Below are positions 4,391-58,974 of a stretch of DNA of 64,000 nt, piece after piece. Position 1 is the first letter of the stretch. Each line of letters starts with the position of its first letter. Origin of the DNA: the human T2T-CHM13v2.0 reference genome, Homo sapiens; assembly GCF_009914755.1 (NCBI RefSeq), contig NC_060938.1; one strand, given 5' to 3'. The notes under the pieces are model-generated. The model had not been told where the DNA came from and made no database searches. It worked only from the letters and a program-made list of their open reading frames with translations. The position numbers and the translations under genes were made by a program.

Positions 4391-5880
4391 TGTGTCATTC
4401 TATCTCCCATCTTGTAGCCTACTTGTTTCTTCAGATTTAAGAAACAGAAACCCTATATTTTCTCAGGACATGACACTTGAAATAACAAGAAAGAATATTG
4501 TGGGACTCTGACCTTGGTCCGTTTCTGTCTCTTTCATTCTCATCTTTACTCTAGGTGCCCAGAAACTCTTCTTTGAAATAAATATAAAAGATCTGTGTTT
4601 GCTTTGAGAGAAAGCCACATAACATTGTCACAAGCCAGATTATTGAACTCTGCCAGATGGCCCTTATTTACCAAATATATGTTTTAGTTTTATATACGAA
4701 CAGAGGTTTTAAAAAGATAAAGACGAACAAAATTGTGTTTAATGTCCTGTATGATACCTTTTGCCTTATTTACAAACTGGTCCTCTCTCTGACTGTACCT
4801 GCTCCTGATGCCCCATCCTCAATGTCCTCCATCAGCATAAAAAATGTGAAACCTCTTTTTCAAAAACAAATTTAAAAAAAAGTGCTCAGTCTCTCATCTT
4901 GAGATGGAGAATTAGAAGCAAATTTGCCCTTGCTTTTCTTCTTAATCTTCCTTCTTCCCACCTTCTTTCCCTCGCTCCCTTCTTTCTTCTTTCTTTCACA
5001 CCATGTGCCCCAGAATGACAGCTCAGGGAAAGTAGGCATTATAAGCTGAGTAGCCTTTTCCTTGATGTCCCTTGAAGGGCTCCTTATGTTCAGAGAATAT
5101 ATCACTGCATTTGCAGCTCCCCCAGAAATGCCGTAGCTTGGAGGAGCCTATTACTCACTTGAATCTCTTTGGTGTAGACCTATAAATAGATTCTCGTCTT
5201 TTCCTTGTAACCCCCTATAGATTCTTGATTCAAGGGTCAAAAATGGAGAGATGAGAGTTCAATCTTCTTGGAACTTACTGACACCCTAGCTCCCTTTTAA
5301 GAACTTGTCCTCCTTACTAACACCATCTACATGGCCATCTGGGTCTTCTCAGCTCAGAAACACCCTGCAACAATGGCTGGCGGAAATAAGGGGAGGGCCC
5401 ATTTGAATTAGCACATTCCCCCACAAGCACACACATCCATACTGCCAGGCCTCTGTTTGTCCAGTTTCCTCCTCTTGTGCTGTTCTTCCCACCCTTCTCC
5501 TCAGTGCAGTTCAGATATCATCTGTGTCCCATGAAGTCTACTCTCTCCCAGGGGAAACCCTTTGAATTTCCATTGCATATTATTCTGTGCTTCTTTTTAT
5601 GATTAATCCCATTTACCTTGTATTATATAAATATATTTTGGTCCTTATTAGATTATATATACTTGGAGGAGGACAGTATCTTTCTTTGGTCCATTGGTGT
5701 GGCTACCACAGGCTCACAGCATGGCATTTGGTTGCCTAAAATGATATGTCTTATCCGTTCTTTGATGTACAGATAAGAAAAGCCTTTATTTAGTTTGGCT
5801 TTCATTTTGTTCAAGAACAGTGGCACAGTTTGGTTTTTCTTGATATCTTTCCCTTATTCATGGTTGCTTTTCTCAAACAG

Positions 5881-6050
5881 CACATGTGGGGCTTAATACC
5901 TAGATGATGGGTTGATAGGTGCAGCAAACCAGGTGGTACAGGGTCCTGTGTGACTCTACCATGGTGCACATTTACCTGTGTAACAAACCTGCACATCCTG
6001 CACATGTATCCTGAAACTTAAAATTTAACAGAAAAGGAAAAAGAAAAAGA
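5881..6050 (+). mobile_element. Old L1PA 3'UTR fragment carrying a foreign ~27-30 bp insert
   Basis: gggcttaatacctagatgatgggttgataggtgcagcaaacc...tgtaacaaacctgcacatcctgcacatgtatcctgaaacttaaa plus A-rich tail. Confidence 0.9.
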
Positions 6051-6293
6051 AATTATTATAAATGTAAAGTAATTAAAAGTATATTATTTAGGAGGGACAG
6101 TAGATATCACAAAGGTAAGCATGTTTCATTCTCAAATGAAATACACAAATTTATAAAAGTGAATTCAGCACCAGTGGTGAATATAAAAGGCTGTTAAGGA
6201 GGAGGAGCTAAAGTTTTGATTGGAACTTGAAGAAAAGGTATGTTGTTATAGGCAGAAAACTTGCCATGCAGGTGATCATGTTAGAATCAGTGT

Positions 6294-7551
6294 CAGACAT
6301 TAACAAAACATTTTCAGTCAAGGGCAGAGAGTAAATATTTTAGGCTTTTTGGAGGCTGATTACATAATTTGCACAATGAAATAGTGGGTCCCTTTTTCAA
6401 AAAGCAATAACGAAGTGCCATGAGAAGTACTTAAAACATAAAGCTCTTTTTCCTTTTTCCATGGTTTCTCTCTCTAAACTTGTCATGTTGTTTTATATTT
6501 GCTCTTCAGTGTCATTCTAAGGAAAGAAAATGTTAAATTATTAGCATGAATTTTGCCATTCATCTTTATATTATGCCATGCCAGTCTTAAATAAGTTCTG
6601 AATAAGAACTTCTAATTCATTTGCAGAATTACTGACATAGGAAACATTTCTTATTTCATAGCTCATGCAGTGCATATATGTTTTGTTCTTACCAGAAAAC
6701 TGGACACACTGCACAGATTAACTCACCTGTTTTTATTTATTTCACTTCTTGATATACACATATTCAACAAACACTCTCTTCCTTTGGCTTCCTAATGAGT
6801 AAGAAAAGACTGAAAAGAAAAGAAACTGAGTTGCTTTTTCTTTTCTTTTCCTTCTTTGACATAATTTTCAGCTGAGGTGGTTGGTCAATTCATGGAAGTA
6901 ACATGAGTAAGAAAGGCTATAATTAGGTTCCTTAGTCATTTATGTTTCTTAGAATGCCATCGTTTTCTTTCTGTGTTCAAAGCAAGTTTTGGTTCCAATG
7001 GAAAACATGTTCTTTAAGGACTGTCAGCATCCCAGCTTACTCAGAGTAGATGTGAGAGACTTTGCAATCGCTTTGAGTCTCATTGAGTGTGCATCCTAAG
7101 TCTACCAGAATCTTCTACTCCCGGGGTATTGTGAGAGCTATAGGGGGTGAAGTGGCAAGAAACAATGGGCATGTGTATAGTATATCCATATGTTTATGCA
7201 TCTCTCTTTTGCTACTGCACATGCCTAATTGTTTCATTAGACTTCATTCAAAAACACAAATTCAAAGATAAAATTATTAAGTGTTTCAAGACGGAGAGAC
7301 AGGAGAATATTAAACCAAGAGCAGGTGGTACAGGGTCCTGTGTGACTCTACTGGCTGCATACCCATGAAGCTTCACCTGGGTTTTGCAAGCCATATGGTC
7401 TCTGTCTCAAGTATTTAGCTGTTGTACCATGAAGTGCGGCTATAAATGATATGTAAACAAATGGACGTGACTGTGTTCCAGTAAAACTTTATTTACAAAA
7501 AACAGGTAGCAGCCAGAATCTGGTCTGTGGGCCATTGTTTGTTGATCCCTA
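6294..7551 (+). mobile_element. MER58A (hAT-Charlie) split by a nested MER45 insertion; pieces ~6294-6350 and 7380-7551
   Basis: aagggcagagagtaaatattttaggcttt | gccatatggtctctgtc...ctgtgttccagtaaaactttatttacaaaaaacagg continue the MER58A consensus. Confidence 0.8.
6351..7379 (-). mobile_element. MER45 family (hAT-Tip100) DNA transposon, ~1 kb (MER45B/C-like)
   Basis: right end aaattattaagtgtttcaagacgg...attaaaccaag...gtcctgtgtgact...cccatgaagcttcacctg matches the antisense MER45 terminus; degenerate 8-bp TSD ggcttttt/ggttttgc. Confidence 0.75.
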
Positions 7552-7559
7552 GTTAGGCA

Positions 7560-17212: not shown

Positions 17213-17386
17213 CAATGACTCTCAACTTGAATGTACATCAGAATCCCCAGGAGGGCTTGTTAAGAAACAGATTCCTAAAACCTTACTCCAAAGTAGGTGT
17301 CAGGTGGAGCCTGAGAATTTTCATTTCTAACAACCTTCCAGGTGTTGCTGATGCTGCTAGCCAAGGAACCACACTTAGAGAAACAC
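17213..17386 (-). mobile_element. MER5A DNA transposon
   Basis: catcagaatccccaggagggcttgttaa...catttctaacaa...gctgatgctgct...accacactt. Confidence 0.8.
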
Positions 17387-17404
17387 CTTCAAAGTGCATA
17401 TTTT

Positions 17405-17573
17405 CGTGTCTTACTATTCAAAGTATGCTCCCTGGACCACCTGCATTAGCATCACCTGAGACCTTGTTGGAAATGCAAATTATCAGGTCCCACTTCAGAT
17501 GTAATGAATTAGAATTGTATTTTCATCAACTCCCTGAAGTGACTTGTTTGCATATTAAAGTTTGAGGAACACT
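17405..17573 (+). mobile_element. MER5A-family DNA transposon
   Basis: caaagtatgctccctggacca...gcatcacctgag...gaaatgcaaat...aaagtttgaggaacactg. Confidence 0.8.
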
Positions 17574-19280: not shown

Positions 19281-19460
19281 CACTTGCCACTCAAAGTGCG
19301 ATCCACAAAACCAGCAGCAGTAGCAGCACCTACCAGCTTGTTAGAAATGCAGAGTCTCAGGCCCCACTTCAGACCCACTGAAAGAGAATCAGCAGTTTAA
19401 CAAGATCTCCGGAGGCTGTGGGGGAGACTCACAGGCAGCTTAAAGTTTCAGGAGCTCTGC
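19281..19460 (+). mobile_element. MER5A-family DNA transposon
   Basis: ctcaaagtgcgatcc...accagcagca...cttgttagaaatgcagagtctcaggccccac. Confidence 0.8.
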
Positions 19461-35405: not shown

Positions 35406-36172
35406 ACACACTCCTTTGAGTATTTACCGTTGACTTCCAGGTGACCCACTTAAGGGCTTCTTCCAGAAGGGCAGGCAATAAGACTATCAAGACTCTTCAA
35501 AGCACTCTTCCCCAAAGCCATTAGATGAGGTCCAATTTTCTCAGCTTGATATTTCTGAGAACTGCTCTTCCTTTATTTCCAGGATTTAAGAAAAATAAAA
35601 TAAACTGATATATATATACATACCTTTAGAAGGATTCAGAAAAGAAGAAATGGCCGTTTCACCCCAATATGTCACTATAGATATGAATGCCACTCATAGA
35701 ATTGACACGTCATGTTTTTAACTTCTGTGCTTTAGGATTTTCCTGTTTGAATTGTTTATGTGCATGTGATTTTGGTGGAATTTCTTCCCCTTTCCTCTGT
35801 TCCTTGCTCCTTCTTTTGCTCAGTCAGCATAGGAACATAGCTCCCACACTAGGAAGGGCTGGAGGTTAGTAACATCAAGCAGTGGGCTTTCAAGTTAGTT
35901 TGCACCTTGGTTTGGAAGTGTTTGCTCAGGTCTCAGATACACAGGAGACTGTGTAATCACTCTTGTGGCATCTACTACACACAGCACGTGAGTTATTCCT
36001 AAACTGAGCACAGGCTCCTGGGTGGTGAATCCTAGTCTTTTTATCTCCTGCAGGCTAAGCCTTGGTATTTCCTTCAGATTACACCAAAACCAAAATAATG
36101 GGCAATGTTGTCCCTGAATGTTCAAATTAGGTTGAGTACACAGAGCCAAAGACTATCAAAAGAAAGTGTCCT

Positions 36173-36573
<401 letters not shown>

Positions 36574-36718
36574 TGTCCTAAAAGAAGTGGTGGTACCTGT
36601 GGGGCGTGTTTGGTGTCAGAGTGTTTCTGCTAAGGTTATTTTAATTAGCCTCCTCCCAAAGCCCTCCCCCTATTCTCCTTGAGGAACTGTTTGACCGTCA
36701 CATCCTTAGAAAGGCCAA

Positions 36719-37261
36719 ACCACTACTAACTCTCCTGACCCTCTGCCTTATCCTCATACCCTTAAAGATGTGACTTAAAAGAGAAAAAATTATGTTGTTA
36801 ATTTCATCAACTAGGGCAAAGGGGAAAAATGTTCATTTCGATGCAGGAAGTTAATGGGAGATGGGAGGAAGCTACGGTTACAATTCCCATAATACATTAA
36901 TGTATATTTAATATACCACCTTGATTTGTGGCCTCAAGTTAAATAACTACATATGTTTGCAGCATAATTCTTTTCATAATTGTGTAGCCTCAATGGGATA
37001 ACATTTGTATTAGTTTCCATAATCGAAAATGTCAAATGCCTGTTTCCACCTTCCAAGTATTTTGGTTTTAGGTAGCAAAGACAATTCTTTCAATGCGTAT
37101 CTGTTCTCATTAAGTTCTGATTGCTTTATAAAGAAATAAAGTCTTTTCCCATTGTTCTGCTCTGTGGAAGTCACCTTCAGAGTAAGGGTGGGGGTGACTG
37201 TCCTTGCCAATTTTTAAGTAACTGCCTTGCAAGGGTGATTCCCTACAGAGTTATTTTCTGC
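36719..37261 (+). repeat. Inverted-repeat arm A (non-repeat-looking source sequence, 543 bp)
   Basis: reverse complement of 37681-38224; ~8 substitutions plus a small junction indel by manual alignment. Confidence 0.97.
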
Positions 37262-37465: not shown

Positions 37466-38307
<842 letters not shown>

Positions 38308-57288: not shown

Positions 57289-58042
57289 GTGAGTATTGAG
57301 GTTGATAGCTTCTGTGAGGCCTGGTTTCCTGGGGTTGTGCCCATGTTCATATGACAGCTGCTTCCACAATAACATAGCAGGTGCGTAGCTCAGGATTTGC
57401 CCACTTTCTGCAAGTGGACACTCTCGCTTGTATCTAAAAGGCCTCTCCCATGGTGCCAGAATGCCTCTGACAGCATTTTCAGAGCTGTGACGGCAGGACT
57501 GTAGCTTTATGGTGGGAGCTTCTATCTTTGTAAATGCCACTGATGTCAGCTCTCACCATTAACCATTTTCTTTTGTCAAATGGGAGAGATTCAGGACTCA
57601 TGGAAGTGAGAGACTGGCATGATGAGGCAAACAGGGGGCAGTTTAACTGGCTGTTTGGCCACTTTCCCCCACTCTAATTCTCCTTCTCCTTTCCATAAAA
57701 CATGCTTTCCAATTTCTGCCAATAAAAGCCTTTTTAAAAAAGTACTAGTCTTTCATTTTTTTTTTTGCATACCTTGTTGTTATTCCTTCTGAACCAGTAG
57801 TAACACAATATACGAAGTACATTCTCTTGGGTATAAGGCCAGTGTATAGGTGGGAATCCCATAGACCTAAAAAGAAAAACAATCTAGGATTTCTGGATGT
57901 GCTCTGAAGTGGCACCTTCTAAGCTGCAGTATTTGTTCAACAGTGTTTTTCCAACAAAAAATAGGATGAGTTCACCTGTGAAGCATCCTGAAGGGAAACA
58001 CCGGTGCACTGGGCAGGGAACAGGAGACCTAGATATACTTCT

Positions 58043-58756
58043 TCTTTTTTTTTTTTTTTTTTGGTAGATATATTTATTTATTTATTTATTTTTATTTTAT
58101 TATTATTATACTTTAAGTTTTAGGGTACATGTGCACAGTGTGCAGGTTAGTTACATATGTATACATGTGCCATGCTGGTGTGCTGCACCCATTAACTCGT
58201 CATTTAGCATTAGTTATATCTCCTAATGCTATCCCTCCCCCTTCCCCCCACCCCACAACAGTTCCCAGAGTGTGATGTTCCCCTTCCTGTGTCCATGTGT
58301 TCTCATTGTTCAGTTCCCACCTATGAGTGAGAACATGCGGTGTTCGGTTTTCTGTCCTTGCGATAGTTTACTGAGGATGATGATTTCCAATTTCATCCAT
58401 GTCCCTACAAAGGACATGAACTCATCCTTTTTTATGGCCGCATAGTATTCCATGGTGTATATGTGCCACATTTTCTTAATCCAGTCTATCATTGTTGGAC
58501 ATTTGGGTTGGTTCCAAGTCTTTGGTATTGTGAATAGTGCCGCAATAAACATACGTGTGCATGTGTCTTTATAGCAGTATGATTTATAATCCTTTGGGTA
58601 TATACCCAGTAATGGGATGGCTGGGTCAAATGGTAACAACAGGTGCTGGAGAGGATGTGGAGAAATAGGAACACTTTTACACTGTTGGTGGGACTGTAAA
58701 CTAGTTCAACCATTGTGGAAGTCAGTGTGGCGATTCCTCAGGGATCTAGAACTAGA
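58043..58756 (-). mobile_element. L1PA3-like element, 5'-truncated with twin-priming 5' inversion (inverted piece ~58635-58756 on +)
   Basis: antisense 3' end to ...ctgggtcaaatggta, then sense aacaacaggtgctggagagg...gatctagaactaga; 18-bp TSD agacctagatatacttct at 58025-58042 and 58754-58771. Confidence 0.95.
58310..58634 (-). pseudogene. L1 ORF2p C-terminal remnant
   Basis: PFDPAIPLLGIYPKDYKS...MFSLIGGN matches the L1 ORF2p C-terminus. Confidence 0.9.
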
Positions 58757-58974
58757 CCTAGATATACTTCTAACATAATCTGTGACTGTATGCAGGTCAT
58801 GCTAAGTATGTCAGACTGCCATTTTCTCCTTGAGGCTGGAAGTGTGGGGAGAAGGGGATAATGTAGTTGAGAATCCATTACTGGCCCCACCTTGGACAGA
58901 GAGACAGGCAGGTAAAGGGTACACATGTGCCTGGATGGTGCTGCTACTGGACTCTTGTTTACATTAATGTGTCA

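What the first reader, a model, noticed from the sequence alone, without database searches (positions are those of the whole stretch)
5930..7351. Exact 30-bp piece of a decayed MER45 pasted into an L1 3'UTR 1.4 kb upstream
Seen: caggtggtacagggtcctgtgtgactctac occurs identically at 5930-5959 and 7322-7351. At 7322 it is a native, mutated part of MER45. At 5930 it interrupts the L1 consensus gcagcaaacc-accatgg, with 2-bp microhomologies (ca / ac). Inference: the copy went from MER45 into L1 long after both elements decayed. This fits a locally templated insertion (Pol theta end-joining or a replication template switch), possibly recent or polymorphic.
Basis: partly seen in the sequence, partly recalled or inferred. 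Interest (0 to 1): 0.7.

Follow-up and report, generated by a model that had tools for sequence, protein, structure and literature searches.

The report
DNA repair patch copied from neighbour
An old jumping-gene fragment in an intron of the human NRXN3 gene carries 27 extra bases that exactly match unique DNA 1.4 kb away, likely a scar left when a broken strand briefly copied its neighbour during germline repair, which is a known and ordinary kind of mutation with no sign of function.

Summary
Real, and a new example of a known kind. The 30-mer at 5930-5959 and 7322-7351 occurs only twice in the genome, even at 3 mismatches. None of 29 related L1 copies has it: the L1 gained 27 bp and lost nothing. 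At 7322 it is native to an old ~1-kb repeat and carries that copy's private changes, so the copy went donor to L1. Likely mechanism: the L1's broken 3' end primed at microhomology 1.39 kb downstream, copied ~28 nt and returned. The L1's left end (AAACCA) also lies 6 nt before the donor start (chance ~1%, post hoc). Classic Pol theta insertions fit poorly, since their templates lie within 20-30 bp. Age is open: probably younger than the L1; a flat prior gives a median of 8-17 My and a 4-9% chance of under 1 My. No orthologue, pangenome or reads were available. A second such event, a ~540-bp inverted copy inside an Alu, lies 30 kb away; 50 kb more of NRXN3 showed none.

The parts
5883..6025 (+). 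Recipient: heavily 5'-truncated L1 3' end (L1PA13-like, name recalled), followed by an A-rich stretch to about 6052; 5' border approximate, no clear target-site duplication
   Evidence: Aligns with 29 genomic relatives; 7 of 115 majority columns differ
5932..5958 (+). 27-bp net insertion between the native L1 halves AAACCA (5926-5931) and CCATGG (5959-5964); can equally be written 5931-5957; 56% G+C
   Evidence: Gap of 27 columns in 29 of 29 relatives; G+C
5930..5959 (+). Full 30-bp identity with the donor, including the junction microhomologies CA (5930-5931) and AC (5958-5959)
7322..7351 (+). Donor tract, native and decayed part of the old repeat; spans a deletion of about 8 bp relative to the family majority
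   Evidence: 7 of 30 positions differ from the majority of 24 family copies and 9 majority columns are missing; best ungapped match in the 24 loci is 21 of 30 (alignment)
6354..7379 (-). Donor element, ~1 kb non-autonomous DNA-transposon fossil (MER45B, name recalled), nested in another short fossil (MER58A, recalled; about 6292-6351 and 7380-7553)
   Evidence: Full-length family alignments at 63-67% (L053, L061, L039); L043 matches both flanks, 6306-6351 and 7422-7495, as near-adjacent pieces
7312..7317 (+). AAACCA, identical to the last 6 nt of the L1 left end, 6 nt before the donor's CA; possible looped-out priming site
   Evidence: Only other + strand occurrence within 2 kb each side; chance 0.6-0.9% within 10-15 nt; noticed post hoc
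7363..7367 (+). CCATG, identical to the first 5 nt of the L1 right end, 12 nt after the donor end; weak
   Evidence: Chance 4.8-5.7% within 15 nt

Best explanation
The L1 fragment carries a 27-bp same-orientation copy of unique DNA 1.39 kb downstream, likely made in an ancestor's germline when a broken 3' DNA end primed on that neighbour through microhomology, copied about 28 bases and returned to its own partner end. SHOWN: net +27 bp, no loss from the L1, donor intact, direct orientation, direction donor to L1, 2-bp microhomologies at both junctions. INFERRED: (1) a break at the L1 site AAACCA|CCATG; (2) resection of the right end past 1.4 kb, exposing the bottom strand over the donor; (3) the left 3' end annealed there by CA, likely helped by AAAC pairing with a 6-nt template loop; (4) synthesis aborted, which avoided a 1.39-kb deletion; (5) the new end re-annealed by AC at the L1 right end and was filled in. 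The polymerase is unknown. It likely happened after the L1 inserted. The result is likely a neutral intronic scar. Confidence in the class (microhomology-primed local template switch) is about 0.9; the figure given is for this break-and-resected-end version.
For: Two copies genome-wide; 0 of 29 L1 relatives carry it; it carries the donor's private substitutions and deletion junction. Direct-repeat insertions are what priming of one resected end on the other gives (PMC7165422 passages). One third of insertions in a human cell assay came from within 2 kb of cut sites, and donor distance followed resection length (10.1101/2022.09.30.509517 passages; those donors lie near other cut sites, so this is an analogy). 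Meiotic resection reaches about 2 kb, and hotspot insertions show template switching (PMC7615360 passages). The longer extra match (6 nt) is on the left, the side that would prime first. Germline template-switch insertions with interrupted microhomology are reported (PMC8421209).
Against: The sequence cannot tell a two-ended break from a fork switch or an RNA template: all give a direct copy. With a blunt break the right junction would have only 1 bp of microhomology; 2 bp needs a staggered end or re-use of one base. The 6-nt match was noticed post hoc, and a match of 6 or more on either side within 15 nt occurs in 995 of 40000 random trials (2.5%). Priming exactly at it would have copied 6 more bases than are seen. 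The age argument is soft (1-24% for 'as old as the L1') and the pair was found because it is exact. No hairpin explains the tract (z -0.01 to 1.18).
Confidence: 0.5

Rival explanations
1. Replication template switch (FoSTeS or MMBIR type): the nascent strand left a stalled fork at the L1, primed 1.39 kb ahead, copied about 28 nt and returned, re-using one base.
For: Explains zero loss and the overlapping CA/AC microhomologies without a staggered break. About 100 germline template-switch insertions of 25 bp or more per person are reported (PMC8421209 section 10). Mouse Nrxn3 is named as a recurrent-break-cluster gene in neural progenitors (PMC9352722 passages).
Against: Classic MMBIR insertions are inverted and were sought within 100 bp. 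A template 1.39 kb ahead of the fork must be opened. The Nrxn3 breaks are somatic. No further kb-distance copies were found in 50 kb more of NRXN3.
Confidence: 0.25
2. RNA-templated patch after the L1 inserted: NRXN3 pre-mRNA (sense, + strand) served as template for the right end's bottom strand (class 2 TSIP type).
For: Copy and donor are in the gene's sense orientation (annotation in the finding). RNA-derived patches with microhomology and without poly(A) or target-site duplication are described (PMC5110952), and R-loop-linked insertions near breaks too.
Against: TSIP donors are defined as distant. Sense orientation has a 50% prior. Nrxn3 showed little R-loop signal in mouse neural progenitors. 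The second event in the window is inverted.
Confidence: 0.08
3. Made when the L1 integrated: reverse transcriptase jumped from L1 RNA to nearby RNA or DNA and back, so the insert is as old as the L1.
For: The insert lies about 45 bp from the 5' end of a heavily truncated L1. The window's L1 has only 3 clear private changes in 115 bp, which leaves about 21-24% for a perfect match (hand calculation).
Against: Eight relatives with cleanly aligned upstream sequence are 5.1-8.3% from the majority; at 6-8% the chance of 0 mismatches is 1-4%. The jump back would have to land on the exact base left.
Confidence: 0.08
4. Classic polymerase theta templated insertion (TINS).
For: 2-bp priming and resolving microhomologies are the typical lengths (PMC11541566 passages); the direct-repeat class exists.
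Against: Templates are typically within 30 bp or 20 bp, first tracts rarely over 10 nt and AT-rich; here 1392 bp, one 27-30 nt tract, 56% G+C against 46% in the flanks. Distal templates were under 0.1% of repair.
Confidence: 0.06
5. Assembly artefact or a mutation private to the CHM13 cell line.
For: Only one assembly could be seen; a perfect match is what either would give.
Against: Both junctions carry microhomology and the L1 resumes at the exact base. A similar event with 1.5% divergence sits in the same window, so such events do get fixed. High base accuracy of this assembly is recalled, not tested.
Confidence: 0.03

Closest known systems
Germline MMBIR-like templated insertions (MMB-TI; Osia et al. 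2021, PMC8421209)
   Same: Insertion of 25 bp or more copied from nearby DNA, microhomology or interrupted microhomology at junctions, inherited, no gross rearrangement.
   Different: Their search covered templates within 100 bp and keyed on inverted templates; this one is direct and 1.39 kb away.
Polymerase theta templated insertions, direct-repeat or cross-junction class (PMC7165422, PMC11541566)
   Same: Direct orientation, 2-bp priming and resolving microhomologies, prime-abort-return logic.
   Different: Template about 50 times further away, tract about 3 times longer, not AT-rich.
Class 2 templated sequence insertion polymorphisms (TSIP; PMC5110952)
   Same: Copy-type patch with donor intact, microhomology, no poly(A), no target-site duplication.
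   Different: TSIP donors are distant loci and TSIPs are polymorphic; here the donor is local and polymorphism is untested.
Short-range template switches in great apes (Walker et al. 2021, PMC7954356)
   Same: Two switch events giving a short templated insertion fixed in hominid genomes (4017 events; median tract 12 nt).
   Different: Their model is reverse-orientation and short-range; this event is direct and kilobase-range.
Dispersed duplications among insertion variants (Delage et al. 2020, PMC7640490)
   Same: Low-copy, non-adjacent duplicated insertion (773 of 13,850 annotated insertions in one genome).
   Different: That class starts at 50 bp; this insert is 27 bp.

Membership tests
Locally templated insertion (general) | Inserted sequence absent from the ancestral state of the recipient | tested here: met
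   0 of 29 L1 relatives carry it; ancestral state inferred from paralogues, not orthologues
Locally templated insertion (general) | Unique nearby template, left intact, to which the sequence is native | tested here: met
Locally templated insertion (general) | Microhomology at the junctions | tested here: met
   CA and AC, 2 bp each, overlapping on one base
Classic Pol theta TINS | Template within about 20-30 bp of the break | tested here: not met
   1392 bp
Classic Pol theta TINS | First tract rarely over 10 nt and AT-rich | tested here: not met
   27-30 nt, 56% G+C
Classic Pol theta TINS | Dependence on POLQ | not testable with these tools
   Needs an experiment
Classic MMB-TI | Inverted orientation to a template within 100 bp | tested here: not met
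   Direct, 1392 bp (definition)
Class 1 TSIP (L1 ORF2-mediated) | Target-site duplication of 5 bp or more and poly(A) | tested here: not met
   Neither flanks the insert (definition)
Class 2 TSIP | No TSD or poly(A), end-joining features | tested here: met
Class 2 TSIP | Donor in a distant genomic region | tested here: not met
   Donor 1.39 kb away; no other copy in the genome
Class 2 TSIP | Polymorphic in humans | not testable with these tools
   No other human haplotype available
MER45B / L1PA13 family names | Match to the Dfam or Repbase consensus | not testable with these tools
   No repeat library; names recalled. PMC5753468 only lists MER45 and MER58 among DNA transposons and L1PA13 among L1s

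The most novel reading that the evidence does not exclude
The donor was chosen by both break ends: it is bracketed by copies of the L1's left end (AAACCA, 6 nt before) and right end (CCATG, 12 nt after), a joint chance of about 5-7 in 10,000. This would be a two-sided, looped-out microhomology search over more than a kilobase, and one case of an under-catalogued class of short, kilobase-distant templated insertions that can be found, oriented and dated from a single genome because decayed repeats supply both the ancestral state and a barcode.
Probability: 0.2. Interest if true: 0.5.

Novelty: new member of a known kind. Interest (0 to 1): 0.25.

Why it matters
As one event it matters little: a 27-bp intronic insertion with no annotated exon or enhancer at either site. 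Its value is as a clean natural example, with the ancestral state readable from L1 paralogues and the direction readable from the donor's private decay. It shows that short germline templated insertions can come from over 1 kb away, outside the 100-500 bp windows used by the template searches read here. A repeat-anchored genome scan for such events would give donor-distance and orientation distributions that separate resection-based from fork-based and RNA-based mechanisms.

Tried and rejected
Chance: rejected. Part of an L1 subfamily: rejected, 0 of 29. Family paralogy of the donor repeat: rejected, best other copy 21 of 30 among 24 loci. Target-site duplication around a 1.4-kb insert, or tandem duplication: rejected, because the L1 runs on at 5960 and the donor repeat runs through 7322 on both sides. 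Direction L1 to donor: rejected. Hairpin-defined tract: rejected, z -0.01, 1.14, -0.81, 1.18 for four folds. NRXN3 as a hotspot for such events: no support; five further 10-kb stretches gave 0 isolated kilobase-distance copies, a small sample. A genome-wide rate could not be had: the survey covered 278,610 bases in 59 sources, mostly 3-kb loci picked for holding repeats. A full-text search for the 30-mer found 0 papers; supplements and variant databases were not searched, so the variant may be catalogued. Two papers recalled as relevant (Abyzov 2015, Conrad 2010) are not held and nothing is taken from them. No age for L1PA13 was found in the passages read. No search of microbial or viral collections was run, as they do not bear on a human intron.

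Full report
Observation. The 30-mer is present at 5930-5959 and 7322-7351, both on the + strand, with no mismatch; 0 of 100 shuffles gave such matches. In the whole T2T genome it has exactly these 2 matches at up to 3 mismatches, and the reversed control has 0. A survey of exact matches of 18 bp or more with non-aligning flanks in 54 sources (228,610 bases) gave 10 rows. By eye, 4 are Alu-type, 1 L1-type, 1 LTR-type and 3 look like target-site duplications; the remaining row is this pair. Nine loci were left out of that survey: 4 that overlap the window and 5 near-duplicate loci.

Recipient. A search with 5880-6040 scored 40 of 1322 candidates, and 29 loci besides the window itself were fetched. 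All 29 lack the segment; the window's copy has a 27-column insertion and no L1 base is lost. The native site is AAACCA followed directly by CCATGG, and the insert (5932-5958) sits between them. The 30-bp identity comes from 3 shared junction bases. The L1 is only about 140 bp, with no clear target-site duplication. The label L1PA13-like is recalled.

Donor. A search with 7230-7385 gave 29 other loci; 24 were aligned after dropping 5 (L047-L051) that repeat L046's hit pattern. The donor tract differs from the family majority at 7 of 30 positions and lacks 9 majority columns, a net deletion of about 8 bp; the best ungapped match in the 24 loci is 21 of 30. Family copies align over 6354-7379 at about 63-67%. 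The insert therefore carries this one copy's decay, which fixes the direction from donor to L1. The names MER45B and MER58A are recalled; PMC5753468 (three passages) only lists them among DNA transposons.

Junctions. The microhomologies are CA and AC, overlapping on one base. The last 6 nt of the L1's left part also occur at 7312-7317, 6 nt before the donor's CA; this is the only other + strand occurrence within 2 kb each side. The first 5 nt of the right part occur at 7363-7367. In 40,000 random break-donor pairs conditioned on a 2-nt match, within 15 nt the left pattern arose 348 times (0.9%), the right 2268 times (5.7%), both 29 times (0.07%), and a 6-nt match on either side 995 times (2.5%). 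This was noticed post hoc, and neither outer match alone gives the observed product, so it is a lead only. The donor has no unusual fold.

Age. Of 27 relatives used (L018 and L025 dropped as another subfamily by eye), 8 have cleanly aligned upstream sequence at 5.1-8.3% from the majority, 2 are at 11.5-12.6%, and 17 are at 20% or more because they are truncated or misaligned there. The window's L1 differs at 7 of 115 columns, 4 of them where the family itself is split. The chance of a perfect match if the insert were as old as the L1 is 1-4% at 6-8% per-copy divergence and 9-11% at 4%, and about 21-24% at 2.6% (hand calculation). The relatives were chosen for likeness to the query, which biases the window's own figure down; the pair was noticed for being exact, which biases the other way. 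With a flat prior over 60 My and assumed rates of 0.6-1.5 per 10^9 sites per year, the median age is 8-17 My, the 95% bound 32-52 My, P(under 7 My) 24-47% and P(under 1 My) 4-9%. So 'younger than the L1' is likely; 'recent or polymorphic' is not shown.

Mechanism. The product is a prime-copy-return scar. The version I favour (0.5) is a two-ended break at the L1 site with resection of the right end past the donor, priming of the left 3' end on the exposed strand, aborted synthesis and return. Direct repeats are what priming of one resected end on the other gives (PMC7165422, passages). Donors within 2 kb of cut sites follow resection length in a human cell assay (10.1101/2022.09.30.509517, passages). 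Meiotic resection is put at about 2 kb (PMC7615360, passages). Rivals are a fork template switch (0.25), an RNA-templated patch (0.08), a switch during L1 integration (0.08), classic Pol theta TINS (0.06) and artefact or cell-line mutation (0.03). The sequence alone cannot separate the first three. Pol theta templates lie typically within 30 bp or 20 bp (PMC11541566, passages), with short AT-rich tracts; this event meets none of these.

Comparison with what is known. Inherited templated insertions are documented: about 100 calls of 25 bp or more per person with templates sought within 100 bp (PMC8421209, passages and part 1 of 2 of section 10); 4017 short-range reverse switches across great apes (PMC7954356, passages); 25-30 TSIPs per person from distant donors (PMC5110952, parts 1-2 of 4); 773 dispersed duplications of 50 bp or more in one genome (PMC7640490, passages). 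This event works like these but fails a defining feature of each named subclass (distance, orientation or size). It is a new example of the general kind. A full-text search for the 30-mer found 0 papers; supplements and variant databases were not searched and may list it.

Context. A second local copy lies in the window: 36719-37255 is repeated in inverted orientation at 37688-38224 (537 bp, 98.5%) inside an Alu, with about 8 Alu bases lost and 4 bp of microhomology at the right junction; its middle has only these 2 matches in the genome. Five further 10-kb stretches of NRXN3 had no isolated kilobase-distance copy, so a hotspot is not supported, on a small sample. Mouse Nrxn3 is named as a recurrent-break gene in neural progenitors (PMC9352722, two passages), which concerns somatic cells. 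The annotation given with the finding lists no exon or enhancer at either site.

Verdict. Observation confirmed; interpretation partly supported; new member of a known kind; interest 0.25.

Noticed in passing
window 36719-37255 and 37680-38224: A second locally templated insertion: about 540 bp of unique DNA copied in inverted orientation into an Alu 0.43 kb downstream; 98.5% identical over 537 bp, about 8 Alu bases lost, 4-bp microhomology at the right junction, small irregularity at the left. The divergence is near great-ape level (recalled scale).
   Followed up: partly
window 58025-58771: Young-looking L1 piece of about 710 bp with a perfect 18-bp target-site duplication, poly(T) at the left and what looks like a 5' inversion near 58635 (L1 identity and twin priming recalled).
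   Followed up: no
window 6292-7553: The donor element is nested in another short DNA-transposon fossil, with a decayed 8-bp duplication at its ends by eye (names MER45B and MER58A recalled).
   Followed up: partly
L032 (G000:C6:80436540-80436671) and L008 (G000:C7:135053666-135053820): Two of the 29 L1 relatives have their own short insertions near this site: 19 bp in L032 that partly copies L1 sequence just downstream, and about 24 bp in L008 that repeats adjacent L1 sequence.
   Followed up: no
window 36161-36587: Alu with a long GAAA repeat tail and a duplicated target site by eye.
   Followed up: no
L067:7095-7139: Exact 22-23 bp tandem duplication in unique NRXN3 intron DNA.
   Followed up: no
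window 17292-17515 and 19310-19389: Low-copy, 76-78% matches in both orientations about 2 kb apart, probably ends of an old repeat.
   Followed up: no
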